Source: an uncultured Candidatus Bathyarchaeia archaeon (GTDB lineage: Archaea > Thermoproteota > CALKCG01 > B24). Taken from it: a DNA stretch of 64,000 nt. The DNA lies in contig CAYWZZ010000002.1 of the NCBI GenBank assembly GCA_964463005.1, forward strand, positions 27,939 to 91,938, given 5' to 3'. The notes below the pieces were generated by a model. It saw only the letters and a program-made list of their open reading frames with translations, ran no database searches and had not been told where the DNA came from. Shown here in pieces: positions 13,833 to 27,766 of the stretch (position 1 is its first letter; the number at the start of each line of letters is the position of its first letter). A program made the translations under genes and the position numbers.

Positions 13833-14243
13833 ATGTCTGCTAAAAGAGTATCTGTATTAGATAGTGACCGTTGTGTAGGCTGTCAGCTTTGCATGTTTGC
13901 ATGCAACAGAAGACTTGGATATAGTGGCTTAGGCCTTTCAGCCATACTTGTTAAATCTATAGGCGGTATCGAAAAGGGGTTTACAGTCATAGTATGTAGA
14001 GCTTGTCCAGATCCACCATGTCAGAAGGTATGTCCCACTGGGGCTTTAACTGTAAGGGTGGGCGGTGGAGTTAAATTAAACCCAGATAAATGTATTGGAT
14101 GTGGGCACTGTAGGGAGGCTTGTCCTTTTGGAGCTATATTTTGGAATTATGAGCTTAACAAGCCTATAGTATGTTTATACTGCGGCTACTGTGTAAAGTA
14201 CTGTCCTTATAAGATTCTAGCGTTTGAAGAGGTGAGAAGATGA
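13833..14243 (+). CDS. poly-[4Fe-4S] ferredoxin (AOR-associated electron-transfer subunit)
   Basis: Four Cys-rich cluster motifs (CVGCQLCMFAC, CRACPDPPC, CIGCGHCREACP, CLYCGYCVKYCP). Translationally coupled to the downstream AOR locus, with stop and start overlapping. Confidence 0.8.
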   Translation: MSAKRVSVLDSDRCVGCQLCMFACNRRLGYSGLGLSAILVKSIGGIEKGFTVIVCRACPDPPCQKVCPTGALTVRVGGGVKLNPDKCIGCGHCREACPFGAIFWNYELNKPIVCLYCGYCVKYCPYKILAFEEVRR

Positions 14244-15968
14244 CGTATGGGAAAGTCCTCAATATAGATTTATCTAGAAAACGGAGCTGGGTTGAAGATC
14301 GCTCTGAGCTCTTCGACAGTAGAATTGGAGGAGTCAGTGTCGGTATAAAGCTTTTAGAGGAAGAATTGCCTAAATCTGCAGACCCACTAGGACCCGAAAA
14401 CGTCATAGTCTTTACTGTTGGACTTCTCACAGGGGTATATCCTATGGCTTCGAAAACGATAGCATTATTTAAATCACCTTTAACTGGAAACCTCGGTGAA
14501 AGCCACGCTGGCGGTAGAAGCGCCGTAGCTATAAGGTCAGCAGGCTATGAAGCCATAGTTATCAAAGGTGCTAGTGAAACCCCAATATATGTAGCTATTC
14601 ACGGCGAGAGAGTCTTCTTTAGAGATGCTTCAGGTCTATGGAGTGTGGGTAGTAGTTTAACTGTTGGAAGAGTGATACGTGAAAGGGAGCCTGGTGCTGG
14701 TATTAGGTCGATAATGCGTATAGGAATTGCTGGTGAAAGATTGGTTAGGTATGCGTGTGTAACAACTGAAACCTATAGACATTTCGGTAGGCTTGGGTTG
14801 GGAGCGTATTCGGCAGTAAGAAGCTTAAAGCACTGGTGATATCGGGGGCGAGAACCATACCAGTTAAAGACGTTAAAACCTATAGAATGCTTTACGACGA
14901 GATATTTAACGCGGCTACTAGAACAGCGATTATGCGTAAGTATCATGACATAGGAACCTCTATGAATGTTTCCTCTAAATGAGATAGGAGGTCTTCCAAC
15001 TAGAAACCTCAAGGAGGCCAAGTTTGAAGGTGCTGAGAAAATCTCTGGTGAATTTCTCGTTGAGAACTATCTGGGACGTAGAGTCGCATGTAGCCACTGT
15101 CCAGTAGCCTGCATACATTTGGCAGCGTTAAGGGAACCGTATGAAGATGAACCGTACTTTTACAAGACGACTGTGAGCTTATTTACTCTTTAGGCTCTAT
15201 GCTCGGCATATCAGATACAGAGGGTATGCTTAGGCTTTTCCACGAAGTTGAAGTTTTAGGCGTAGACGCTATATCTACTGGTGTTGTTTTAGCGTGGATG
15301 ACTGAAGCATTTGAGAAGGGTTTAGTATCTGAAAGTGAGATGGCTGGTTTGAAGCCTAAATGGGGTGATTGGAAGACTTATCTTAAAGCAATGAGGTTTA
15401 TCGTAGAGCAACCAACGGAATTTTACAGAGACCTCGCTATGGGTGTAAAGCATGCCTCAAACAGGTATGGTGGAGCCGAGTATGCGCTGTCTTTCGGTGG
15501 GAATGAAATGCCGGGCTATCATACCGGTCCGGCTGCTCATCTAGGGTTTCTAACGGGTGCTAGACACAGCCATTTAGATTCAGCTGGTTATAGTTTAGAC
15601 CAGAAGATTTTAAAGGAGAACCGTAAACCATCTGTTGAAGAAGTGGTCGATTATCTACTTGAGGAAGAGTCTTGGCGTCAGATACTCTCGAGTTTAGTTG
15701 TCTGCTTCTTCGCTAGGGGTATATATAATCCTACGTTAACGGAGAATGCTCTGAAGACTGTCGGCTATGGGTTTAGCTCAGACGATCTTGTGAAGCTGGG
15801 GTTGAAATTCTCAGAGATAAAAACAGGTTTAAATTTAGAGAGGGGTTTAAGATTGAAGATTTAAAGATGGCTGAGAGAGTATATGAAACCATATCTCCTC
15901 TAGGTCCTATAGATAGGGAGTTTGTGAAGAAGGCCGTAGACCTATTCTATCTTAAAATTGGTCTATAA
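14240..15968 (+). pseudogene. aldehyde:ferredoxin oxidoreductase (AOR family) split into 5 frames by 4 single-base frameshifts
   Basis: The fragments 14240-14839, 14821-14982, 14966-15193, 15151-15864 and 15840-15968 align colinearly, with no gaps, to the intact AOR at 41476-43311 (GSKKLKALVISGART, GTSMNVFPLNEIGGLPTRN, DDCELIYSLGSMLGISD, PLGPIDREF...). Three of the four shifts are repaired by adding one base to a T4, T4 or G4 run. The C-terminus is about 25 aa shorter than the paralog. Confidence 0.7.
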
Positions 15969-17372
15969 GGCCTCGGCTATTTTAATCACTTTCAACGCTA
16001 CGTCTAAAGCATCCACTCCTAAGACGGTTATCATGGGTTCTTTGCCCCAATCCCCTTCATGATATATGATGTCTGGAACAGTTCCCTCTAAGGCTTTAAT
16101 CGCCTGCTCTGCACCCCAGCTTGTAGACAGCCCTTCCTTGCTTTTAATATCCATAGGCTCAAGCCTTCTATCGTAGCTTGAAATTTTAAAACCGAGCCTT
16201 CGGCAGGCTTCAAGTATATGCTTATCCATTTTTATGTTCATACCAGCTCTTATACTTGGATTGAACTTCATAGCCGTTAAGACTGTTGCGGCTACATGCC
16301 GTGAAACACCGTAGCTAGGCTCCATGACAGCCTTAACCTTATCTTGAACTTTAACTATTCTACCCGGTATTCCAGCCACTTCAGAGAAGTCTCTAGCATA
16401 ACTTAACGCCATAACTAAATTTGATGAAGTTTCAGGTATGAGCTTTGAAACCTTAGGGTTCTCCTCTAAAAGCTTAACCGCGGATCTAACGTTTACGATG
16501 ACATCCCATTTCTCAGAGTTCATGTACAGGGATGCCATTGGGTTGACTGGTTTAACGCCTAAGCCTATAGAATGGTGGTAGGTTATAGCCTTCTCCACGA
16601 AGTCTTTAGCTTTCTTGATTGCTTCTTGAACTGTTTGACCCTTCGCAAGCCAAGCCGCTATAGCGGCTGAGAAGCAACACCCAGCTCCGTGGAATACACC
16701 TTCAATTCTAGAGCCTGTTAATCTGATTATTTCCCCGTTGCAAAAGACCACATCTATGGGCTCTCCTCTCAAATGTCCACCTTTAACGACAACTGCTTTA
16801 GGACCGTAGGATGCTATCAATCTAGCCGCTTTCTCAGCGTCGCTGATGTTTTCGATTTTAAAACCAGCTATCTTGGAGGCTTCACCTATATTCGGTGTTA
16901 CAACCGTAGCTATCGGTATAAGCTTCTCAATAATGGTTTTATAAGCGTTTTCTGAAGCTAATTTAAAGCCTGTTCCAGCTATGTAAACCGGGTCTACCAC
17001 AATTGGTTTATCGGCTTTCTCAAGTAGTTTAACGACCTTGTCTACTATCGGTTTTGAAGGCAATAATCCGGTTTTAACGGAGTCGAAGCCTATATCTTCA
17101 AAAACTGCTTTATACTGGGCTTCGATGAGTTTTGAAGGTAGGGGGGTGACTCTGTATACGCCCATTGTATTCTGAGCCGTTATACAAGTGATAACGGTTA
17201 AACCGTAGACTCCTAGAGATGAAAAAGTCTTTAAATCTGCCTGTATCCCAGCACCAGCTGAACTGTCTGAGCCTGCTATGCTTAGAGCTCTGGGTTCCAG
17301 TTTACGCTTAGGCAACAGCTTCACCGCGCCATATACTTCCTCACGATTTTTAATGCACAGTATGGCCCGCAC
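15963..17372 (-). CDS. thiDN: bifunctional HMP/HMP-P kinase ThiD fused to archaeal thiamine-phosphate synthase ThiN
   Basis: N-terminal ThiD (SIAGSDSSAGAGIQADLKT) plus a C-terminal domain of about 200 aa of ThiN type. Confidence 0.75.
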   Translation of the reverse strand: MRAILCIKNREEVYGAVKLLPKRKLEPRALSIAGSDSSAGAGIQADLKTFSSLGVYGLTVITCITAQNTMGVYRVTPLPSKLIEAQYKAVFEDIGFDSVKTGLLPSKPIVDKVVKLLEKADKPIVVDPVYIAGTGFKLASENAYKTIIEKLIPIATVVTPNIGEASKIAGFKIENISDAEKAARLIASYGPKAVVVKGGHLRGEPIDVVFCNGEIIRLTGSRIEGVFHGAGCCFSAAIAAWLAKGQTVQEAIKKAKDFVEKAITYHHSIGLGVKPVNPMASLYMNSEKWDVIVNVRSAVKLLEENPKVSKLIPETSSNLVMALSYARDFSEVAGIPGRIVKVQDKVKAVMEPSYGVSRHVAATVLTAMKFNPSIRAGMNIKMDKHILEACRRLGFKISSYDRRLEPMDIKSKEGLSTSWGAEQAIKALEGTVPDIIYHEGDWGKEPMITVLGVDALDVALKVIKIAEAL

Positions 17373-18907: not shown

Positions 18908-20485
18908 TTGCCGAGACTTGTAGAACGCAACACTATTGTTAAGGATTGGAGGAAAGTCCCTGTAAAGATTGCTCTCGTCTACCCTGGAGGCTATAGGGCT
19001 GGGATGACTGGTTTAACTGTTCAGCTTCTATACCATCTATTCAACATTAGAGACGACTGTCTATGCGAGAGGGTTTTCATAGATGGGTCTAAGCCTCCGC
19101 GTAGCATTGAATCTGGGAGAACTCTTGAAAAATTCGACGTAGTGGCTGCTACGATTTCGTATGAAGAAGGCTACGTTGAATTTCTTAAAGGACTTATGGA
19201 TTCCGGAATACCCTTACGCCGCGTAGATAGAGACGATAGGCATCCCCTTATCTTGGCTGGGGGAATCGTTCCAACATCGAATCCAACTGTTTTAGAGGAT
19301 TACATAGACGTTTTCACAATAGGTGATGCTGAACCTATCGTAAATCAGCTTGTAAAAGCCTACATGGAGCATCGTAACAAAAGCGGTAGACTTGAGGCTT
19401 TAAGTAGTATGACGGGTTTCTACGTGCCAAGTTTCTCTGAAGGTCTTGTGGAAAGGGTTTACGCTTCAAAACTCGAGGATGACCTGTATCCTACGGCTCA
19501 GGTGATTCCACTGGTTGATGAGAGCGACTCGCTTTGTCCAGTCTTCGGTTTGACGTTTAACCTCGAGGCGACGAGAGGATGTGGGAGGATGTGCCGCTTC
19601 TGTATAGCTAGTTGGGTTAATATGCCTGTGAGGCATAGGAGCTACGAATCTATGGTAGGTTTAATCGAGGATGGATTGAAGAGGACTGGTGTTAATAAGG
19701 TTTCACTTATCGGTGCTGGTATATCGGATAATAAGTGGCTTAAAGACGTCTGCGCGTATTTAACCTCTAAGGGTGTAAGTTTTTCAACGCCTTCTATTAG
19801 AATGGATTTGATTGATGGGGAGCTTATGAAGCTTATAGTTCAAGGTGGGCAGAGGACTCTCACTCTAGCTCCTGAGTCTGCTTCAGAGTACGTTAGAAAC
19901 CTCATAGGTAAACCTATACCGGATGACCGAATTTTAGAAGTTGCTGAGAACGCTTATGAATGTGGGTTTAAGAGGCTTAAACTATACTTTATGCTCGGTC
20001 TCCCTGGTGAAGACCGTGAATGTTTGGAGAGTATTGGAAGATTAACTGAAGCCTTCGCGAGAATGGGGTTCAACCAGATTCACATATCTATAAACCCTTT
20101 AATACCTAAGCCTCAGACGCCTTTCCAATGGCTACCCCTAGCTTCTAGGAAGTACTTGGAAGAAGCTTTTAAAGTCGTTAGGTCTAGTATGCCTAGAGCA
20201 CCTGTTTCCGTCGAAATGCTCAATCCCGCTGAAGCTGAGCTTCAGGCTCTACTCTCCCTTGGAGACCGCTCCGTCGGTAGAGTTGTTGAATACATGGCTG
20301 TACATGGTATGATGAACGTGAGGGGGGCTTCTAGAGCTGTTGGAGTAGACATCGATGGAATTGTTTATAAGGCTAGGGGCTTAGATAGCCCTCTACCGTG
20401 GGATAGGATACGTTCAGCTGATTTTAAAGCTCTCAGGGAACATTACTACGCGTTTGAGCGTGAGTTAAACCGTCAGCTCCGATAG
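18908..20485 (+). CDS. radical SAM protein with N-terminal B12-binding-like (Rossmann) domain
   Basis: CGRMCRFC is a CxxxCxxC motif. N-terminal KIALVYPGG... domain. TTG start with GAGGGTG upstream. Confidence 0.65.
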   Translation: MPRLVERNTIVKDWRKVPVKIALVYPGGYRAGMTGLTVQLLYHLFNIRDDCLCERVFIDGSKPPRSIESGRTLEKFDVVAATISYEEGYVEFLKGLMDSGIPLRRVDRDDRHPLILAGGIVPTSNPTVLEDYIDVFTIGDAEPIVNQLVKAYMEHRNKSGRLEALSSMTGFYVPSFSEGLVERVYASKLEDDLYPTAQVIPLVDESDSLCPVFGLTFNLEATRGCGRMCRFCIASWVNMPVRHRSYESMVGLIEDGLKRTGVNKVSLIGAGISDNKWLKDVCAYLTSKGVSFSTPSIRMDLIDGELMKLIVQGGQRTLTLAPESASEYVRNLIGKPIPDDRILEVAENAYECGFKRLKLYFMLGLPGEDRECLESIGRLTEAFARMGFNQIHISINPLIPKPQTPFQWLPLASRKYLEEAFKVVRSSMPRAPVSVEMLNPAEAELQALLSLGDRSVGRVVEYMAVHGMMNVRGASRAVGVDIDGIVYKARGLDSPLPWDRIRSADFKALREHYYAFERELNRQLR

Positions 20486-22417
20486 GTTTTTACACGCCTC
20501 ACAGATCCTGGCGGGCCGAGCTTTACGTATAGTTCTTCAGCCCAAGCGTACGTTTCAGGTCTAGGCCCTAGAAACACTAGGTTTGTCGGCCATATCAGCC
20601 CTGCTATGTATGGTAGATCTGTATATCTTGGGCAGTTTAACATCTCTAAAGCCGGTCCAGAACTATCTGGATTTGAAGTTAGGTTTTGAGAAGAAGGTGG
20701 ATTGTTCAGGATTAGCATGCATATACTTCTCTCGAGTAGAGCTGCGTATAGTGCAGGCACAGACATCTCACCACTACCCATAATGCCTATCCGCTTAACA
20801 TCAACCCAGTTTAGAGATTTCAAGGCTTCAATAGCCCTTAGAACGTCGTAAACCCTCATACTCGCAATCGTCCTCCCGGTTAATGGCGCGGCTCTACGTA
20901 TAAGCCACTGTAGGTCTGAAGCCCAAGATGTTTCACCTATCCCTCTAACTTTTAAGAATGCTCTAGCCCATGAACGGCTAAGTCCATTCACGAGAGGCTC
21001 TTCAACCCAGTAGAAGTTAAGAATTCTAGCAGACCTGTTCAATACGAGAAGTACTGGCGTAGGCTCAGGCGCATTTAAAGGCTTAAGGACCTGCATATGT
21101 AACCTCCAATCTTCTTCGGATGTGAAGTTCACCAGGTACCCTAGCCAGTTTTCACTCTTCTGTTTAAGCTCGACTTCCACGTTTAAACTGCAGGGTTTAC
21201 GTGGGAATGCTGAAAACGTCTTCTCCATAAGCGTTTCAATTAACCCTCTTCTGTAGGATTCAAGCTCTTCAACACTGTTTATCTCCGGCGGTTCTGCCGG
21301 TTTTATAAACCAGTTTTGAACAGTCGTCACTTTTTCATCGCTAGGTACTATATCGAAGACTTTTAGCGTTTCAACAGCTTCTTGAGATGGTGGAGATTCA
21401 TCTATGTCCCTGACTTCTTCGACGGAGACTTCCACACCTTTGAGGTGTTTTAAAAACCATTGGAGTATCGCTTTCCTAGAACCTTCAGTGTATCCGTGCC
21501 CTCCCGGTGTTTCAACTAAAGCTATGTTTTCAGGGCTTCCTAGAAGCTCATACAGTCTTTTAAGCTTCTTAAGTCTTATATATTAGTCTTACAGAGTCTA
21601 TGTCGAAAATCCAATCCCCCTCTGTTGAGGCTATGAGTAGAGGTCTTGGAGCTATTAAAGCACCTATGTCTGTTAAATCCCACATGTAGCTGTTTATCCA
21701 AAACATGCAGTCACAGTGTCCTTCGATTGTACGTTTACAGATGTGCGATTCTACGGTTGCTGTTCCACATACGGGTGCTACGGCTTTTACCCTCACATCA
21801 GCTGCCGCTGTGAACCAGCTCATCGCCCCACCGCTAGATATGCCTGTGACGCCTATATTGTTTAGGTCTACTTCTGGTCTAGACTGTAGTATGTCTAAGG
21901 CTTTCATGGCGTTCCAGACTTCGACGCCTGCGGGTGTATAGCCTAAACTGTACCAGTTGAACCATCCGTAGTGGTATGTGCCATGGTGATGCCCACGTAT
22001 TTCACCCTTCTGAATGGTCTCTATTATAAGGGTTGTGAAGCCCAACTGTGCGAATTTCCTCGGGTGGGCTTGGTAGGCATGCTTCTGGTTGAATGAATGA
22101 CCGCATAGGTATAAGATTGCTGGCGTAGGTTTGTCAAAGCTTTCAGGTACGTATAGATTTCCGGTTACGTATAGCCCTGGAAGACTCTGGTAGTAGAGCT
22201 TCTCGATTCTATAGCTTTTTCTATGGATTACGCCAGTTATAGTTGGTTTAACTGATTCACGCTTACTGTTGAAGTAGTCCGTTAAGCCCAACATGTCTAT
22301 GAATTTCCTACGCCTCTCATGGTTAGTTTTAACCCAGTAATCTCTATCCTTGAGATCGCTTAGAGATTGTTCAGTTATCCTCTTAGCCTCTCTACAAAGG
22401 TATGCGTAGATGTTCAT
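20473..22417 (-). pseudogene. two-domain CE7-like alpha/beta hydrolase (acetyl-esterase type) interrupted by a frameshift near 21570-21585
   Basis: The 282-aa ORF (21569-22417) has the GISSGG nucleophile elbow and the Asp, but stops 12 aa later. The catalytic His (ETPGGHGY) appears in the +1 frame. That frame runs uninterrupted into the 320-aa ORF (20473-21435), which is a second hydrolase-fold domain with a degenerate triad (Ser->Gly, His->Tyr). Confidence 0.6.
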
Positions 22418-22545
22418 TACGTTGTAAGTCTGCGGAGAAGCTTTAAAAGACTATTGCCTTAGAGTTTCACTCGTTGAAACGGTCTTCCCATTAGTGTCCT
22501 ATATAAGCTAGAAATTGCTAAGTTAAACTCGGTTAAAATCAGGAG

Positions 22546-23472
22546 GTGATGGGTTTGAAAAAGGCTCAGGTTTTAACGGCTGTGATGTTTACGCTACTAT
22601 TGACCACGCTGTTTGCGTCGCCTATGGTTATGGCCGACAACGATAATGAAGCTACAGACGAGTTGAAGAACAAGGCTGAAGTGATGCTTAAGCTTTTAGA
22701 GATTACGAGGAATAGGGCTAGCGAGACTTTAGAGCTTTTAAACAAAGCCACTGGGGAGATCCCAGACGATATTAGCGCTACGTATCAAGAGGCTTTAAGC
22801 CTCTACGATCAGAGCGTGGAGGCGTTTAAGGATGGAAACTACAGTAGATGCATAGTGCTCGGACGTATGGCTATGGCTAAATTCGAACTCTGCCTGAAGA
22901 ATGCCTGTAGGCTTCTCGTTAGAGAAGTTGAAGAGGTTATGGCTTGGAGGGGTCTTACAGTCGCCTTGGATAGGCTTAGAAGGTTTATAAATTGTGTTAA
23001 AGCCTTGAGGGATAAAGTGTATGAGGAATTTGGGGGGCTACAAGAAGCCATAGAGACAAATGTAGACCCGCTTATAAATGCGACTAACGATTTAGCTAAT
23101 GAAGCTGAATCGTATATAAGTAGTGGGGATTACGTCGATGCTTCTAAGGCTATCGGTGAGGGGCATGCTAAGGCTGCTCATGCTTTAGCTACTTTGAATA
23201 AACTTCTAAGGGGTAGAGCCGTGGCTATCGGTAGGGCTAAGCGTTACATAGAGAGGAATTTTGAGAAGTTTGGTGAACGTGTTAGGCAGAAGGCTAGGCA
23301 GATGGAGAGAATTAGGGCTAGGAATATTTTAAATAAGCTCGATCAGATAGCCAGTAAGCTTGAGGAGCTTAAAGGGTTTACCAGCGACGAAGAGGTTAGG
23401 GAGAGGCTTAGAGAGAGGCTTATGGAGATACAGAATATGCTGGAGGAGCTTTTGGAAGAGCTTGGGGATTGA
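22546..23472 (+). CDS. secreted all-helical protein (signal peptide, N-glycosylation sequons), unknown function
   Basis: N-terminal hydrophobic signal (LTAVMFTLLLTTLFASPMVMA), coiled-coil-like remainder, and sequons NYS and NAT. AGGAGG sits 3 nt before the ATG at 22549. Confidence 0.6.
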   Translation: MMGLKKAQVLTAVMFTLLLTTLFASPMVMADNDNEATDELKNKAEVMLKLLEITRNRASETLELLNKATGEIPDDISATYQEALSLYDQSVEAFKDGNYSRCIVLGRMAMAKFELCLKNACRLLVREVEEVMAWRGLTVALDRLRRFINCVKALRDKVYEEFGGLQEAIETNVDPLINATNDLANEAESYISSGDYVDASKAIGEGHAKAAHALATLNKLLRGRAVAIGRAKRYIERNFEKFGERVRQKARQMERIRARNILNKLDQIASKLEELKGFTSDEEVRERLRERLMEIQNMLEELLEELGD

Positions 23473-23514
23473 TCTATGGAAAAAGCTTTAAATAACTTCC
23501 TCACTTTTTAAAGT

Positions 23515-24564
23515 ATGAGTCTTCTCAGAGTTCTGCCAGTTTTATCCGTTATCCTTGTTTTCGCCTTAGCCTTTTCAGAGGCTTATTCTGAAGACTATAT
23601 CTACCGTATAGATTCTATGAATTTTACAGTTTATTTCGACGGCGTGGTTGATGTGAAGGCTAAACTTAGCGTAAATGGGACCTGTCTGTTTTTCAGCGTT
23701 GTTTTACCTGGCTCGCCCTTCGCGAATTTTATGGTTTACGATTCTTCAGGTGTGCCCGTGGACTTTGACGTTAACGATGATAATGTTACGGTCTACTGTT
23801 TCGGCGAAAGCCCCTTATACGTTGAGTATGAGACGTTGAATTTAACCTTTAAGGAGGGTGTTCTCTGGACCTTCAAAGTTAATTCTCCAGTAGACTTTTA
23901 CCTCATCCTGCCTTACAACGCTTCTATAACTGGTTTTTCAGACGTGCCTTTGAAGGCTACGGTGCTTAGTGATGGGAGGATTATGTTGAAGATGCCTAAA
24001 GGCTTACAGTACGTAAGCTACGTCATACCTCCGACCGTTGCAGAGTTTAGGTTAAAGGCTTTAAACGCTATTTCAAAGGCTCGTAAGGCTGTTGAAGATG
24101 CTAAAGCTGAAGGTAGAACTGAAGGTTTAAGAGAGGCTGAAAGTCTACTCAATGAGGCTGAAGAGCTTTTCAATAGAGGCGATTACCGTGGTGCTGAAGA
24201 TAGGGCTAATAGGGCTTACGAATTGGCTTTAAACGCTAAGAAGCCTCTATTTGGACTATTAGACTATCTGCCTTATATAGCCGCTTTGGCTGTTTTAGCA
24301 GTCGCTGTTTTCTTGTTCTTGAGGTTTAGACGTGGAGGATTGGCTAAACTTTTACGTGAAAACCCATGGCTTGACGAAGATGAAAAGAACATTTTAAAGG
24401 TTGTATGGGTTAAAGGTGGAGGTGCTTTTGAATCAGATATAAGAGAAGCTTTAGACTTACCTAAGACAACCGTCTGGAGGATTATTAAAAAGCTTGAAGA
24501 AAACGGACTTGTTAAAGTCGAGAAGATACGTGGAGAAAACTACGTTAAACTCACTAGACGTTAG
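23515..24564 (+). CDS. membrane-anchored transcription regulator: signal peptide + extracellular beta-rich domain + TM helix + cytoplasmic winged-HTH
   Basis: Signal peptide (LPVLSVILVFALAFSEA). Five N-x-S/T sequons in the N-terminal 200 aa. TM segment LPYIAALAVLAVAVFLFL. C-terminal DEDEKNILKVVWVKGGGAFESDIREALDLPKTTVWRIIKKLEENGLVKV is a MarR/TrmB-like wHTH. Confidence 0.6.
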   Translation: MSLLRVLPVLSVILVFALAFSEAYSEDYIYRIDSMNFTVYFDGVVDVKAKLSVNGTCLFFSVVLPGSPFANFMVYDSSGVPVDFDVNDDNVTVYCFGESPLYVEYETLNLTFKEGVLWTFKVNSPVDFYLILPYNASITGFSDVPLKATVLSDGRIMLKMPKGLQYVSYVIPPTVAEFRLKALNAISKARKAVEDAKAEGRTEGLREAESLLNEAEELFNRGDYRGAEDRANRAYELALNAKKPLFGLLDYLPYIAALAVLAVAVFLFLRFRRGGLAKLLRENPWLDEDEKNILKVVWVKGGGAFESDIREALDLPKTTVWRIIKKLEENGLVKVEKIRGENYVKLTRR

Positions 24565-24734
24565 AGTAAAATGCTTCTTCTAGTCTATCTCCCCTCAGTT
24601 CATCCATGATTTCCCTATGGAATTTTTCCATAAATTAGCTCCTCCCCATAATCTTTGACAATTCTTTAAAGCCTGAAAGATCGTACGTGCATTTAGAAAT
24701 GCTTTTATAATCCAGGTTCTTAAATTTCCTAGAT

Positions 24735-24899
24735 GGATAAAAGAGTTCTTGTGTCTGAAGAACTTCTAAAGATGTTGGCTGAAGGGAAGGTTAAATATGT
24801 TGAAGGCGCTAGGCTTAAACTCGGCAGGTGGGTTTTAGGTAGGAAGTTGGGTGAGTTTATTGGTTGTAAGGGTGAGGGTAAGGCTGAAGAGGTCGAGTA
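24735..24899 (+). CDS. hypothetical 55-aa protein
   Basis: Unlisted ATG ORF (MDKRVLVSEELLKMLAEGKVKYVEGARLKLGRWVLG...). There is no homology basis, so the call is weak. Confidence 0.25.
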
Positions 24900-25273
24900 A
24901 GGCCGTTGAGCTGAGGGTTCTTGCAAACGGTGGTGCTGAGAGCCCCAAACCTTGCGTGGTTGTCGACCCATCTTTGGTTGAGGCACTGGAAATTCAGCCT
25001 TTACATGGTGAGTTATACTCCGTAGAAGAGGCTTCTAGCGTAACCAAGGCCTATCTAATACCAGATGCCGTGACGCTCGAACTTCTAGATGAAAGTGGGA
25101 GTACACTGTCAAGTGTTAAAGCAGACTTAGTAGTTCAGGAGGGCCTACATGAACCACTTATAACGGACATCACCATAGACTCCCTTGGAATTCAGGTCTT
25201 AAGCTTCAGCAGAGGTTTGTGGAGGCATTTGAATGATCCACCTCAAATGGTCAGAAGAAGTGCGGAGACCTAG
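24851..25273 (+). CDS. hypothetical protein (possible retropepsin-like fold, DPS in place of DTG)
   Basis: 140-aa ORF with GTG start. It overlaps the 55-aa ORF in a different frame. LRVLANGG...CVVVDPSLVEAL weakly resembles clan-AA protease hairpins. Confidence 0.3.
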   Translation: MSLLVVRVRVRLKRSSKAVELRVLANGGAESPKPCVVVDPSLVEALEIQPLHGELYSVEEASSVTKAYLIPDAVTLELLDESGSTLSSVKADLVVQEGLHEPLITDITIDSLGIQVLSFSRGLWRHLNDPPQMVRRSAET

Positions 25274-25590: not shown

Positions 25591-26355
25591 GTGTACGACG
25601 AATACTCGTATAGGATTTTGATAGCGTTAAGAGAAAAGAGTGTTGCTAGGTTTAAAGACCTCAAATCCATAGTAAGCAATTCTAGAATGCTTACAATAAA
25701 ATTGAAGAGGCTTAAAAGTTTAGAGCTTGTAGAAGTTAAGAATGGCTTTTACACTTTAACCTATAAAGGTCTCAAAGTGAGTAGAATACTTGAAGATTTA
25801 GATGAAGCTCTTCACCTCCATGAGCCGAAGGTAAAGAACTTAGAAAGAATCCCCCACTACCACTATACTCCTGTGGTAAAGAAGTATTGTGAACTATTAA
25901 TCGACACATTTGGAGAGAGGCTTGTGAGCATAATGCTCTTTGGCTCTATAGCTAGGGGGGATTGGAATTACGATAGCGATATAGATATACTCATAATCGC
26001 TAAAGGTTGGGAGGATAAGCCAGTTTGGTCTAGGATTAGAGAGGTTAGGAAGGTTAAGGAGAGGCTGGAGGTAAGTCCAGAATACTCAGAGGCTTTAAAG
26101 GCTGGCTACCATCCGATTATTCAAAACTATACACTGAGCGTTGAAGAGGCTAGGAAGTTTAATAGGATATACTTAGATGCCGTGATCGATGGTATTATCC
26201 TTTACGATAGAGACGAGTTTCTGAGTAGAATTCTCCAATCTGTGAGAAAGAGGTTGGAGGAGATGGGTTCGATTAGGATTACGTTTCCGAATAAAAGATT
26301 CTGCTGGGTTTTAAAGAGGGATTTTAAGGCTGGGGAGGTGATAGTACTTGGATAA
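25591..26355 (+). CDS. winged-HTH fused to minimal nucleotidyltransferase (MNT) domain
   Basis: GS-x9-13-DxD motif (FGSIARGDWNYDSDIDILII). N-terminal wHTH of about 90 aa. Confidence 0.75.
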   Translation: MYDEYSYRILIALREKSVARFKDLKSIVSNSRMLTIKLKRLKSLELVEVKNGFYTLTYKGLKVSRILEDLDEALHLHEPKVKNLERIPHYHYTPVVKKYCELLIDTFGERLVSIMLFGSIARGDWNYDSDIDILIIAKGWEDKPVWSRIREVRKVKERLEVSPEYSEALKAGYHPIIQNYTLSVEEARKFNRIYLDAVIDGIILYDRDEFLSRILQSVRKRLEEMGSIRITFPNKRFCWVLKRDFKAGEVIVLG

Positions 26356-26794
26356 CGTTACAAACGTAGACCTTGCGAAGTTGGCATTGAAGAGAAGTGG
26401 AAGATGGTTGAAGAGCGCATTGAGGGCTTTAGAGGATGAAAGATGGGATGATGTAGTCTATTCTTCGCAAATGGCTGTTGAACAGGCATCAAAAGCAGTT
26501 TTAATAGCGCTTGGAATAGAGTATCCTAAGGAGCATGATGTAAGCGTAGTCTTCAAGCAAATACAGGAGATAGAGAATATTCCAGCATGGTTTGTATCGA
26601 TGATTCCCGAGCTCGCTAATATCATTTCTGAGTTGGCCGAATTGAGGGGATTAGCCGGATACGGCTATGAGAAAGGTTTAGATGCAGATTACTTCAAAGA
26701 ATACGCACCTGAGGCGTACGAAATGGCCAGAAAACACCATGAAGCCTGCGCCAAGCTACTCTACCAGCTCTACGATATAGTTACTGAAAATTAA
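26348..26794 (+). CDS. HEPN domain protein (partner of MNT)
   Basis: 148-aa all-helical protein. It overlaps the MNT gene by 8 nt, which is the classic HEPN/MNT operon arrangement. Confidence 0.65.
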   Translation: MDNVTNVDLAKLALKRSGRWLKSALRALEDERWDDVVYSSQMAVEQASKAVLIALGIEYPKEHDVSVVFKQIQEIENIPAWFVSMIPELANIISELAELRGLAGYGYEKGLDADYFKEYAPEAYEMARKHHEACAKLLYQLYDIVTEN

Positions 26795-27175
26795 GCCCTC
26801 AGTCAGATACCACTCTTTCGATTTTGGAATGCATCCTTCACTCGATCTGCAGTAGGGTCACTAAAACCGTTTGGCGGATTTTTGACGATCTTTGAGAAAC
26901 AACCCATTAATTGTAGAAGGTTTTTCTAAATCTAATCACATACTGGTTCATTTAGGGTCGTCAAACTTCACTCTAGAACGTTTTAGAAGACTATCCTTAC
27001 GGTTAATGTTGTTAGAATCTTCCTGTTCCTTTGACTAGTATATGGTCTTCAAGCCCATAAGTACTTTATGAGGCACGGAAGTTGCCGTTTTAAAGGACGC
27101 GTTGAAGTCCCCATAGTCGGACCAAGGCTGAAAACGCTTAAATATAATTCTCCTAAAATTGTCTTAGTGAGGCGT

Positions 27176-27766
27176 ATGCGTAAATCTGTATTCATACCCG
27201 GTTTAGTCGTGTTGGTAATTGGAGCTTGCTTACTGGGATATGGGTTTAAATACGCGAGCGACTTGGATGCTTTAATCAAAGCTAGTGAGTGGGATGTAAC
27301 CTGGTATCGTGTTATAGACCCTTACGGGACTTGGGGAGACGTTATAGGGCGTTCAACTTTACCAGCTAGATTTGGACGTACAACTATAATTTACGAAGAC
27401 GTTTCTGAAGAGTTTGGGTTTAAAGCCACTATGACCATAGAGCTCCTAAGAGACGATACCGTAGTATTCCAAACCGGTAGTGACGACGGCATAATGCTTT
27501 ACGTAGATGGTGAACTCGTCATAAACAGTTGGATTTTAAGAGGTTACACGCTCGATAGCCCTGTGCACATTTCACTTAAGGCTGGAACTCACGCGCTAGA
27601 GCTTTGGTATTATGAATGGCACGGTGCGAATGAAGCATCCTTCGACATGCACGTTGAAGAGTATGAAATGGCTAGAAACATACAGACAGCAAGTGGAGGG
27701 ATACTATTCATAGGGATCGTAGTGACTATAGTAGGCTTTTTATTGAAGCCTAAAGTGAGGATTTAA
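27176..27766 (+). CDS. membrane-anchored PA14-domain protein
   Basis: GSDDGIMLYVDGELVINSW...LELWYYEWHGANEASF matches the PA14 signature. N-terminal and C-terminal TM segments. The internal ATG at 27176 is preferred over the listed 27068 start. Confidence 0.6.
   Translation: MRKSVFIPGLVVLVIGACLLGYGFKYASDLDALIKASEWDVTWYRVIDPYGTWGDVIGRSTLPARFGRTTIIYEDVSEEFGFKATMTIELLRDDTVVFQTGSDDGIMLYVDGELVINSWILRGYTLDSPVHISLKAGTHALELWYYEWHGANEASFDMHVEEYEMARNIQTASGGILFIGIVVTIVGFLLKPKVRI

What the first reader, a model, noticed from the sequence alone, without database searches (positions are those of the whole stretch)
22546..24564. Secreted helical protein plus ToxR-like membrane-anchored wHTH regulator with sequon-rich extracellular domain
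23515-24564 encodes a signal peptide, then an extracellular beta-rich domain of about 200 aa with five N-x-S/T sequons, then a helical stalk, one TM helix and a cytoplasmic MarR/TrmB-like winged helix. This architecture predicts a one-component transmembrane signalling regulator, which is rare in archaea. The co-directional upstream gene is a secreted coiled-coil protein, a possible ligand or co-sensor. It has a TATA box at about 22492-22500.
Basis: seen in the sequence. Interest (0 to 1): 0.65.

Follow-up and report, generated by a model that had tools for sequence, protein, structure and literature searches.

The report
Membrane-anchored archaeal regulator with secreted partner
A Bathyarchaeia gene pair encodes a secreted helical protein and a single-pass membrane protein with an outside sensor-like domain and an inside DNA-binding domain; this kind of membrane-tethered regulator is common but unstudied in archaea, and the partner gene carries a conserved promoter element that makes the circuit testable.

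Summary
Both ORFs exist exactly as described. ORF2 (23515-24564) has a signal peptide, a roughly 145-aa beta-sandwich with five N-x-S/T sequons, a three-helix stalk, one TM helix and a C-terminal winged helix (DUF7343/TrmB/MarR-like). The positive-inside rule and the sequon partition place the wHTH in the cytoplasm, in this protein and in 111 of 118 family representatives. ORF1 (22546-23472) is a Sec-type secreted all-helical bundle.

The interpretation as a transmembrane one-component regulator is reasonable, but the claim "rare in archaea" is wrong. ORF2 belongs to a large uncharacterised Thermoproteota family (1620 cluster representatives at E<=1e-3), and a published census finds about four such regulators per archaeal genome. 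"ToxR-like" holds only by analogy: the polarity is reversed and the wHTH class differs.

New findings:
- ORF1-ORF2 linkage persists down to 22% ORF1 identity, but only in one Bathyarchaeia sub-clade.
- ORF2 has its own BRE/TATA and is probably leaderless.
- The ORF1 promoter carries TGAAACG half-sites phased about 10 bp apart just upstream of its TATA box. This is the only 7-mer shared across all deep lineages.

I infer, without having shown it, a sensor-regulator that activates its secreted partner. This is a new member of a known kind, of moderate interest.

The parts
22464..22481 (.). Inverted repeat GTTTCA-N5-TGAAAC(G), a candidate upstream activating or operator element of the ORF1 promoter. 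The half-sites start 35 and 24 nt upstream of the TATA box.
   Evidence: TGAAACG is the only strand-collapsed 7-mer shared by the 130 nt upstream of ORF1 in all four deep lineages and in all seven promoters. Shuffles share any 7-mer in 70 of 40000 trials, and random real segments in 49 of 20000. Half-sites fall in slots at -45, -35, -25 and -15 relative to the TATA box. The spacer varies (CTCGT versus CCTAT) while the half-sites are kept. It is the only intergenic copy among the 13 TGAAACG sites in the window.
22500..22506 (+). TATA box (TATATAA) of the ORF1 promoter
   Evidence: Conserved as CTATATAAG, CGTATATAT, CGTATAAAT or CTATATCC, 40-47 nt before the ORF1 start in all lineages.
22542..22550 (+). 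Shine-Dalgarno-like GGAGGTGAT ahead of the probable TTG start (22555) of ORF1
   Evidence: Read directly from the sequence. Database copy P0011 (305 aa, 100% identical) starts at TTG 22555.
22546..23472 (+). ORF1: a secreted all-helical bundle protein (308 aa from GTG). The Sec-type signal peptide covers residues 1-30 and ends in VMA. It has an invariant G-N-Y-[ST] sequon hairpin at residues 97-100 and a second G-D-Y hairpin at 194-196.
   Evidence: No Pfam or NCBIfam family matches and there is no PDB fold match with E<0.1. Homologues occur only in Bathyarchaeia.
23483..23495 (+). BRE/TATA (AAGCTTTAAATAA) of ORF2's own promoter. There is no Shine-Dalgarno sequence, so the mRNA is probably leaderless.
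   Evidence: A TATA-like element lies 20-32 nt before the ORF2 ATG in the window, L001, L002, L006-L009 and L013. In L006 a roughly 1.2-kb insertion separates ORF1 from ORF2 and both genes remain intact.
23515..24564 (+). ORF2: a type-I single-pass membrane protein with a cytoplasmic C-terminal winged helix (349 aa)
23515..23583 (+). ORF2 signal peptide (residues 1 to about 23, with predicted cleavage after SEA)
   Evidence: Hydropathy peak over residues 1-25. This segment is a low-pLDDT N-terminal helix in the model and is present in most family members.
23596..24030 (+). ORF2 extracellular beta-sandwich domain (residues 28-172) with five N-x-S/T sequons and the conserved motif Y105-x-T-x-x-L-T-x-K-x-G-x-x-W118
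   Evidence: The model has pLDDT 83-95 here. Foldseek aligns it to the N-terminal beta domain of M1 aminopeptidases (best E=6.6e-6, TMq 0.26-0.30, 7-15% identity). No Pfam model covers it in any of 47 members. Conserved columns are listed.
24037..24231 (+). ORF2 extracellular three-helix stalk (residues 175-239) containing a G-D-Y hairpin
   Evidence: Weak matches to DUF4398, PaREP1 and HEPN-like helical hairpins. hhalign against the ORF1 family hits residues 177-205 (probability 63%) and 80-111 (36%). The stalk is duplicated in the 410-440-aa relatives.
24259..24324 (+). ORF2 transmembrane helix (residues about 249-270), followed by RFRR
   Evidence: The Kyte-Doolittle 19-residue window peaks at 2.45. 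The flanks hold 5 K/R on the C-side and 2 on the N-side.
24367..24558 (+). ORF2 cytoplasmic winged helix-turn-helix (residues 285-348). The recognition helix is K317-TTVWRIIKKLEE.
   Evidence: Pfam TrmB, HTH_24, HTH_27 and DUF7343. DUF7343 matches 38 of 47 family members. The model shows a1-b1-a2-a3-b2-b3 topology. The LPK[TS][TS]xWR...RLE signature is conserved across the family.

Best explanation
ORF2 is a member of a large, uncharacterised, Thermoproteota-wide family of type-I single-pass transmembrane transcription regulators. The shown or strongly predicted features are these. A signal peptide exports an N-glycosylatable beta-sandwich domain and a three-helix stalk. One TM helix follows. 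A minimal DUF7343/TrmB/MarR-type winged helix stays in the cytoplasm, about 15 residues from the membrane. ORF1 is a Sec-secreted helical-bundle protein that is genetically linked to ORF2 in one Bathyarchaeia sub-clade. The two genes have separate promoters. ORF2 is probably leaderless and transcribed from its own BRE/TATA. The ORF1 promoter carries a conserved array of TGAAACG half-sites, phased about 10 bp apart, directly upstream of its BRE/TATA.

The mechanism itself is inferred. The ectodomain senses an envelope or extracellular cue, possibly through ORF1 docking on the stalk, since both carry G-[DN]-Y helical hairpins. This changes the pairing of the membrane-tethered winged helices. The winged helices then bind the phased half-sites and, given their position upstream of BRE/TATA, activate ORF1 transcription. 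The result would be a local sensor-plus-secreted-partner feedback loop acting from the membrane.
For: Architecture and topology:
- ORFs, hydropathy, sequons and charge bias.
- wHTH family matches.
- A confident model with canonical wHTH topology.
- Family-wide positive-inside bias in 111 of 118 representatives, and a nine-fold sequon excess outside.

Family size and range:
- 1620, 714 and 283 cluster representatives at E<=1e-3, 1e-10 and 1e-30.
- Members occur in Bathyarchaeia, Nitrososphaeraceae, Geothermarchaeota and Methanomethylicota.
- Membrane-tethered regulators are an accepted class in archaea (PMC10269533).

Linkage:
- An ORF1 homologue lies directly upstream of ORF2 in L001 (ORF2 56% identical, ORF1 34%) and in L002-L004 (32% and 22%).
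- It lies 2.4 kb upstream in L005.
- No other neighbouring gene is conserved.

Separate promoters.

Cis element:
- It is the only 6- or 7-mer shared across deep lineages upstream of ORF1, and none is shared upstream of ORF2.
- The chance of any shared 7-mer is about 0.002.
- Half-sites sit at -45, -35, -25 and -15 from the TATA box.
- The spacer mutates while the half-sites are kept.
- It is the only paired site in each adjacent-pair locus (the window has a second, inside a coding sequence) and the only intergenic copy in the window.

Shared hairpin motif between the stalk and ORF1.
Against: - No experiment exists for any family member, and DNA binding by this wHTH is unproven.
- Nothing links the TGAAACG element to ORF2 specifically. 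Another factor could bind it.
- The element is absent near ORF2's own promoter and near family members that lack an ORF1 neighbour.
- The recognition helix is nearly invariant across very divergent members. That is unusual for a family of specific regulators with different targets.
- The ORF1 partner is missing in most of the family, for example Nitrososphaeraceae locus L011, so it cannot be essential to the family's mechanism.
- The stalk-ORF1 similarity is weak (hhalign probability 63% and 36%).
- The half-site arrangement (inverted, direct or everted) is not constant between lineages.
- The tether between the TM helix and the wHTH is short, which requires DNA to lie at the membrane surface.
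- A complex prediction could not be run.
Confidence: 0.5

Rival explanations
1. ORF2 is a latent transcription factor that is activated by proteolysis. A signal at the ectodomain triggers site-1 cleavage and then intramembrane cleavage, which releases the soluble wHTH to act on distant promoters (SREBP, ATF6, RsiV or TcpP-like regulated intramembrane proteolysis). ORF1 would protect the ectodomain from cleavage, as TcpH and ToxS do for their partners.
For: The architecture has a single TM helix and a small cytoplasmic wHTH on a short tether, so release would solve the problem of reaching DNA. In bacterial co-component systems the partner inhibits proteolysis of the regulator (PMC10269533).
Against: No site-2 protease, rhomboid or other protease gene is conserved near the pair in any locus. 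The only helix-breaking residue in the TM helix (P253) is not conserved among homologues. A monomeric 65-aa wHTH without a dimerisation module would bind DNA poorly once released.
Confidence: 0.12
2. The wHTH is not a gene-specific regulator. ORF2 would then be a cell-envelope protein whose cytoplasmic winged helix binds a conserved partner. That partner could be a protein, or DNA bound without sequence specificity (nucleoid-to-membrane tethering, or coupling envelope assembly to a cytoplasmic machine). ORF1 would be an envelope-associated structural partner.
For: The recognition-helix signature LPK[TS][TS]xWR..RLE is almost invariant from Bathyarchaeia to Nitrososphaeraceae, even though overall identity is about 21%. 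The ectodomain also has invariant residues (W118, P133, P145 and others). Both points suggest one conserved partner on each side rather than diversified ligands and operators. Most family members have no conserved neighbouring target gene. The wHTH scores sit only around the Pfam thresholds. Winged helices are known to serve as protein-binding modules (my own knowledge).
Against: The closest sequence matches of the wHTH are all DNA-binding regulators: TrmB, MarR, IclR, Lrp/AsnC, MntR and Csa3. Conserved basic and polar residues sit in the recognition helix and the wing. A conserved phased cis element lies beside the linked gene.
Confidence: 0.2
3. ORF1 and ORF2 are functionally linked at the cell surface, but the TGAAACG array is bound by a different, soluble transcription factor. 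ORF2 would regulate other, unlinked genes, or only itself.
For: No TGAAAC sites occur at ORF2 promoters or near homologues that lack ORF1. The motif follows ORF1, not ORF2. In L005 it sits upstream of ORF1, 3.4 kb from ORF2. Archaeal genomes encode many soluble wHTH regulators, several of them in these very loci.
Against: No other regulator gene is conserved across the loci. ORF2 is the only DNA-binding protein that co-varies with ORF1. Half-sites whose orientation varies but whose helical phase is fixed would suit two flexibly tethered wHTH domains better than a rigid soluble dimer. This last point is inference.
Confidence: 0.25

Closest known systems
Transmembrane transcription regulators (TTRs) as defined by Demey et al. 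2023 (PMC10269533)
   Same: ORF2 has a predicted DNA-binding domain plus a TM region in one polypeptide. It is single-pass, as are 56% of TTRs, and it has no recognisable sensory Pfam domain, as is the case for about 57% of TTRs. The class is reported as widespread in archaea and enriched in Thermoproteota.
   Different: That census is a class definition, not a homologous family. This particular family (beta-sandwich, stalk, TM helix, DUF7343-type wHTH) has not been described or tested, as far as the searchable literature shows.
Bacterial co-component systems ToxR/ToxS, TcpP/TcpH and VtrA/VtrC
   Same: These also combine a single-pass membrane regulator carrying a cytoplasmic winged helix and an extracytoplasmic domain with a neighbouring gene for an extracytoplasmic partner protein. 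They act on promoters from the membrane.
   Different: The polarity is reversed. ToxR-type proteins are N-in with an N-terminal OmpR-type wHTH and no signal peptide. ORF2 is N-out with a cleavable signal peptide and a C-terminal DUF7343/TrmB/MarR-type wHTH. The bacterial partners are membrane-anchored and often lipocalin-like beta-barrels, whereas ORF1 is a soluble secreted all-alpha bundle. The archaeal genes have separate promoters. There is no sequence homology.
ArnR and ArnR1 of Sulfolobus acidocaldarius, the only characterised archaeal membrane-bound regulators (cited in PMC10269533, refs 6 and 7)
   Same: They are archaeal (Thermoproteota) one-component regulators that stay in the membrane and activate a promoter.
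   Different: From my own knowledge of the cited papers, ArnR has an N-terminal HTH and C-terminal TM helices with essentially no extracellular domain. ORF2 has a large exported N-terminal domain and a C-terminal wHTH. I did not compare the sequences directly.
Pfam DUF7343 (PF24034), a winged-helix domain of unknown function
   Same: It is the best consistent Pfam match to the C-terminal domain across the family, hitting 38 of 47 members with a best E-value of 4.8e-8.
   Different: The window protein scores 24.4 bits, below the 27.6 cut-off. The Pfam model covers only the wHTH and not the ectodomain or the overall architecture, and it has no assigned function.
N-terminal beta domain of M1 aminopeptidases (APN, ERAP1/2, IRAP)
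   Same: There is fold-level resemblance to the ectodomain beta-sandwich: Foldseek best E=6.6e-6, about 180-250 aligned columns, TMq 0.26-0.30.
   Different: Identity is 7-15% and there is no sequence-profile match. The catalytic and C-terminal domains are absent. This is a resemblance of fold only, and it does not imply peptidase-related function.

Membership tests
Transmembrane transcription regulator (TTR, Demey et al. 2023) | At least one predicted transmembrane region | tested here: met
   A hydropathy peak of 2.45 over residues about 249-270. The model has a long helix at 249-282. The feature is conserved across the family.
Transmembrane transcription regulator (TTR, Demey et al. 2023) | A predicted DNA-binding domain in the same polypeptide, on the cytoplasmic side | tested here: met
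   TrmB, HTH_24 and HTH_27 score at or above their gathering scores. The model has wHTH topology. Positive-inside bias and sequon partition support the cytoplasmic location.
Transmembrane transcription regulator (TTR, Demey et al. 2023) | Actual sequence-specific DNA binding and transcriptional control from the membrane | not testable with these tools
   There is only an indirect lead: the conserved phased TGAAACG array at the linked ORF1 promoter.
ToxR-like / co-component systems (ToxRS, TcpPH, VtrAC) | N-terminal cytoplasmic OmpR/PhoB-type winged helix (Trans_reg_C) | tested here: not met
   There is no Trans_reg_C match. The wHTH is C-terminal and of the TrmB/MarR/DUF7343 type.
ToxR-like / co-component systems (ToxRS, TcpPH, VtrAC) | Type-II (N-in, C-out) topology without a signal peptide | tested here: not met
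   ORF2 has an N-terminal signal peptide, and its exported domain lies N-terminal to the TM helix.
ToxR-like / co-component systems (ToxRS, TcpPH, VtrAC) | An adjacent gene for an extracytoplasmic partner protein | tested here: met
   An ORF1 homologue is adjacent in the window, L001, L002-L004, L008, L009 and L013-L016, and is linked at 2.4 kb in L005. The partner is all-alpha and has no membrane anchor, and it is absent in other clades.
MarR family | A wHTH flanked by N- and C-terminal dimerisation helices in a soluble protein of about 140-150 aa | tested here: not met
   MarR and MarR_2 score below their cut-offs (18.9 against 24.6, and 20.2 against 27). Only the core wHTH of about 65 aa is present after the TM helix.
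TrmB family | An N-terminal TrmB wHTH plus a C-terminal effector (sugar)-binding domain | tested here: not met
   The TrmB wHTH model only just passes (25.9 against 25.6). No TrmB effector-binding domain is present, and the wHTH is C-terminal.
Pfam DUF7343 (PF24034) | Score at or above the gathering threshold of the model | tested here: inconclusive
   The window protein scores 24.4 bits against a 27.6 cut-off. Of 47 diverse relatives, 38 match at E<=0.01 with a best E-value of 4.8e-8. Some relatives carry a precomputed PF24034 hit.
M1 aminopeptidase N-terminal domain | Sequence-profile membership and association with the zinc-peptidase catalytic domain | tested here: not met
   No Peptidase_M1 or M1_N Pfam hit occurs in any of 47 members. 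Only Foldseek fold similarity at 7-15% identity is seen. No catalytic domain is present.

The most novel reading that the evidence does not exclude
The family could be a Thermoproteota-specific solution for signalling across the membrane without two-component systems. In this reading, two flexibly tethered minimal winged helices, dimerised only through the TM helix and stalk, read arrays of half-sites that are fixed in helical phase but free in orientation, directly upstream of BRE/TATA. In the Bathyarchaeia sub-clade this would drive a self-contained loop in which the regulator controls the secreted protein that binds its own stalk (an autocrine or quorum-like, or envelope-integrity, circuit). 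Alternatively, the near-invariant recognition helix could mean that the whole family tethers one conserved chromosomal or protein target to the membrane.
Probability: 0.15. Interest if true: 0.7.

Novelty: new member of a known kind. Interest (0 to 1): 0.42.

Why it matters
Archaea of the TACK/Thermoproteota group have few classical two-component systems, and how they sense the outside is poorly understood. Only ArnR and ArnR1 have been studied as membrane-bound archaeal regulators. This locus gives a compact, testable example from a very large and entirely uncharacterised family. It offers a defined ectodomain, a candidate secreted partner, and a candidate DNA target: phased TGAAACG half-sites at 22464-22481. 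That target can be tested with a 75-residue domain and a 90-bp probe, even though Bathyarchaeia are uncultured. It also corrects the impression that such regulators are rare in archaea.

Tried and rejected
- The Foldseek search of the ORF1 model against the PDB gave nothing below E=0.15, only generic helical bundles and designed proteins.
The ORF2-anchored scans returned only close relatives.
- Literature searches for DUF7343, COG2512 and membrane-anchored archaeal winged-helix regulators found nothing specific.
- I considered and rejected a type-IV-pilin-like (class III) signal peptide in ORF1. The K-A-Q-V-L-T stretch fits the pattern as I recall it, but it is not conserved in homologues, whereas an A-x-A-like Sec cleavage site is.
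- The second GTTTCA-N-TGAAAC pair in the window (16429-16451) lies inside a ThiD-like coding sequence and was set aside as chance.
- PADLOC hits were only to the Csa3/CasR-type wHTH and to coiled-coil noise. There is no evidence for a defence system.
- No paralogue of either protein occurs elsewhere in the window.
- A shared operon promoter was rejected, because ORF2 has its own BRE/TATA and tolerates an insertion between the two genes.
Full report
**Observation.** Both reading frames are present at the stated coordinates. ORF1 lies at 22546-23472 (+, 308 aa from GTG) and ORF2 at 23515-24564 (+, 349 aa).

My hydropathy, sequon and charge analysis shows the following.
- ORF1 has one N-terminal hydrophobic segment ending in VMA, which is a Sec-type signal peptide, and no other TM segment.
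- ORF2 has an N-terminal signal peptide and a single TM helix at about residues 249-270, followed by RFRR.
- All five N-x-S/T sequons of ORF2 (N36, N54, N90, N109, N135) lie in the N-terminal domain.

The C-terminus of ORF2 matches winged-helix models at or around their curated thresholds: TrmB 25.9 bits (cut-off 25.6), HTH_24 24.9 (21.9), HTH_27 23.7 (22.2) and DUF7343 24.4 (27.6). NCBIfam and PADLOC see the same region as Csa3, Lrs14 or Sta1-type wHTH.

An AlphaFold2 model built on 11 homologues has mean pLDDT 82.6. It gives:
- a 14-strand beta domain (residues 30-170, pLDDT mostly 83-95);
- three helices (175-239);
- a long helix through the membrane (249-282);
- a canonical a1-b1-a2-a3-b2-b3 winged helix (288-346).

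The beta domain is about 145 aa, not 200. The ORF1 TATA box is at 22500-22506. ORF1 models as a helical bundle (pLDDT 78) rather than a demonstrable coiled coil.

**Topology.** That condition is not met.
- In ORF2 the 15 residues after the TM helix hold 5 K/R, against 2 before it.
- Of 149 family representatives, 118 have a last TM helix followed by a 60-110-aa tail. In 111 of those 118 the C-flank is the more positive (mean difference +3.6 K/R).
- In those 118, sequons occur at 1.26 per 100 aa on the N-side and 0.14 per 100 aa on the C-side. Composition alone predicts 0.77 and 0.22.

This is what an exported, N-glycosylated ectodomain and a cytoplasmic wHTH would look like.

**What the family is.** Source names place the window in Bathyarchaeia.

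An exhaustive HMMER profile search of 1.84 billion cluster representatives found 1620 proteins at E<=1e-3, 714 at E<=1e-10 and 283 at E<=1e-30. Most of the best 150 share the full architecture. Variants include:
- proteins of 280-310 aa without the stalk;
- proteins of 410-470 aa with a duplicated or extended stalk;
- a few with CARDB domains.

Named members come from Bathyarchaeia, Nitrososphaeraceae, Geothermarchaeota and Methanomethylicota. They are annotated only as 'hypothetical', 'uncharacterized membrane protein', 'winged helix-turn-helix' or 'MarR family transcriptional regulator'.

The wHTH is best described as DUF7343-type, matching 38 of 47 diverse members. No Pfam model covers the ectodomain in any member.

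Foldseek aligns the ectodomain to the N-terminal beta domain of M1 aminopeptidases (best E=6.6e-6, TMq 0.26-0.30, 7-15% identity). This is a resemblance of fold, not evidence of homology or of peptidase function.

The wHTH carries a strikingly conserved signature, E-IR...LPK[TS][TS]xWR..RLE..G....G.QN. It is kept even in Nitrososphaeraceae proteins that are about 21% identical overall.

**'Rare in archaea' is contradicted.** Demey et al. 2023 surveyed 404 archaeal species. They found TM-plus-DNA-binding-domain regulators in 367 of them, about 4 per genome, with enrichment in Thermoproteota. Only ArnR is listed as characterised in archaea (PMC10269533).

'ToxR-like' holds only as a functional analogy. 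ToxR-type proteins are N-in with an N-terminal OmpR-type wHTH. ORF2 is N-out with a signal peptide and a C-terminal wHTH of a different class.

**The partner gene.** ORF1 has no Pfam or NCBIfam family, no PDB fold match, and homologues only in Bathyarchaeia.

Its linkage to ORF2 survives deep divergence.
- It is immediately upstream of ORF2 in L001 and L009 (ORF2 52-56% identical, ORF1 34-39%).
- It is immediately upstream in L002-L004 (ORF2 32%, ORF1 22%; BLASTP E=2e-12).
- In L005 it is 2.4 kb upstream, with two unrelated genes in between (ORF1 27%, E=3e-28). L012 shows the same inserted genes, but its contig ends before ORF1 could be confirmed.
- No other neighbouring gene is conserved across these loci.
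- The Nitrososphaeraceae homologue has no such partner; a topoisomerase gene lies upstream.

The partnership is therefore specific to one clade.

ORF1 has an invariant G-N-Y-[ST] hairpin, which is also a conserved sequon, and a second G-D-Y hairpin. The ORF2 stalk has a G-D-Y hairpin as well. Profile-profile comparison aligns the stalk hairpin to both ORF1 hairpins, but weakly (probability 63% and 36%). This is a lead for a stalk-ORF1 interaction or a common origin, not a demonstration.

**Promoters.** ORF2 has its own BRE/TATA (AAGCTTTAAATAA, 23483-23495) ending 20 nt before the ATG, and no Shine-Dalgarno sequence. A TATA-like element occupies the same position in every lineage. This indicates a separate, probably leaderless transcript. 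In L006 a roughly 1.2-kb insertion carrying two ORFs sits between intact ORF1 and ORF2 homologues.

ORF1, by contrast, has a TATA box 40-47 nt before its start and a strong Shine-Dalgarno sequence.

**A conserved cis element.** An unbiased k-mer comparison covered the 130 nt upstream of ORF1 in four deep lineages (window, L001, L002, L005) and in seven promoters overall.
- The only shared strand-collapsed 6-mers are GTTTCA and CGTTTC, and the only shared 7-mer is TGAAACG.
- The regions upstream of ORF2 in the same loci share none.
- Any shared 7-mer arises in 70 of 40000 shuffles and in 49 of 20000 draws of random real segments, about 0.2%.
- The half-sites (TGAAAC, GTTTCA, or the variants TGGAAC and GTTCCA) begin at about -45, -35/-36, -24/-26 and -15 relative to the TATA box. 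They are thus one helical turn apart, though their orientation differs between lineages (inverted, direct or everted). The single exception is a degenerate TGAAAT at -19 in L005.
- Between close relatives the 5-nt spacer changes from CTCGT to CCTAT while both half-sites are kept.
- In each locus where the pair is adjacent, the only paired site in 9-14 kb is at the ORF1 promoter.
- The window has one other pair, inside a ThiD-like coding sequence.
- Of the 13 TGAAACG copies in the window, only the one at 22475-22481 is intergenic.
- The element is absent from ORF2 promoters and from the surroundings of family members that lack ORF1.

**Mechanism.** The shown or strongly predicted features are an exported glycosylatable ectodomain and stalk, one TM helix, a cytoplasmic wHTH, a linked secreted helical partner, separate promoters, and a conserved phased element directly upstream of the ORF1 BRE/TATA.

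The rest is inferred. ORF2 would act as a transmembrane one-component regulator. Its two flexibly tethered winged helices would bind the phased half-sites and activate ORF1, since a position upstream of BRE/TATA is typical of archaeal activators (my own knowledge). ORF1 would feed back on the ectodomain or stalk.

I give about 0.85 to the architecture and topology. I give about 0.5-0.55 to a genuine transcription-regulator role. I give about 0.3 to ORF2 being the factor that reads the TGAAACG array.

**Rivals.**
- Proteolytic release of the wHTH. No protease gene is linked, and the TM helix has no conserved helix-breaking residue.
- A non-transcriptional role for the wHTH. The near-invariant recognition helix and the conserved ectodomain across very divergent members fit one conserved partner on each side better than diversified operators.
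- A different, soluble factor binding the ORF1 element.

**Verdict.** The finding is real, and the architectural reading is right. The claimed rarity is wrong. The protein is a new, uncharacterised member of an already recognised class, the transmembrane transcription regulators.

What this analysis adds is fourfold:
- the size and taxonomic range of the family;
- the clade-specific conserved partnership with ORF1;
- the separate promoters;
- a statistically supported, phased cis element that turns the hypothesis into a simple binding experiment.

Interest is moderate.

Noticed in passing
window 20473-22417 (-): The AXE1/Abhydrolase_7-like esterase that is divergent from ORF1 is split into two ORFs (282 and 320 aa). 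In L001, L013 and L014 it is one gene of 644-647 aa. tblastn shows a switch from frame -1 to frame -2 at about 21570-21575, so this is a frameshift, either a pseudogene or an assembly error.
   Followed up: partly
window 14240-15864 (+): A gene that I recognise by eye as aldehyde:ferredoxin-oxidoreductase-like is broken into three consecutive ORFs (199, 75 and 221 aa), two in one frame and one in another. This may be a second disrupted gene in this window.
   Followed up: no
window 24733-25273 (+): Two ORFs downstream of ORF2 (55 aa and 140 aa, the latter with no Pfam hit) overlap by 50 nt in different frames. The same arrangement appears to be present in the 91%-identical relative L017. This is either one gene with a conserved frameshift or two overlapping small genes.
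   Followed up: no
window 25591-26794 (+): A wHTH-plus-nucleotidyltransferase (MNT) gene overlaps a HEPN-domain gene by 8 nt. This is a HEPN/MNT toxin-antitoxin-like pair (NTP_transf_2 E=5.9e-10, HEPN E=5.4e-17).
   Followed up: no
window 27068-27766 (+): A 232-aa protein with a PA14 domain (E=2.4e-6) flanked by N- and C-terminal hydrophobic segments. It is another probable surface protein close to the locus.
   Followed up: no
L006 968-2100: An insertion of about 1.2 kb with two ORFs (240 and 137 aa) lies between the ORF1 and ORF2 homologues of this relative. It may be a mobile element, but it was not identified.
   Followed up: partly
window, whole: TGAAACG is over-represented in the window as a whole: 13 copies against 5.9 expected, with 0 of 100 shuffles reaching 13. 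Twelve of the 13 copies lie inside coding sequence, three of them in the 3' half of the frameshifted esterase. This is unexplained and may reflect codon or peptide bias.
   Followed up: partly
window 22436-22449: A second BRE/TATA-like element (AAGCTTTAAAAGA; on the other strand it reads TCTTTTAAAGCTT) lies about 20-30 nt from the ATG (22417) of the divergent esterase gene. It is probably that gene's leaderless promoter rather than part of the ORF1 promoter.
   Followed up: no
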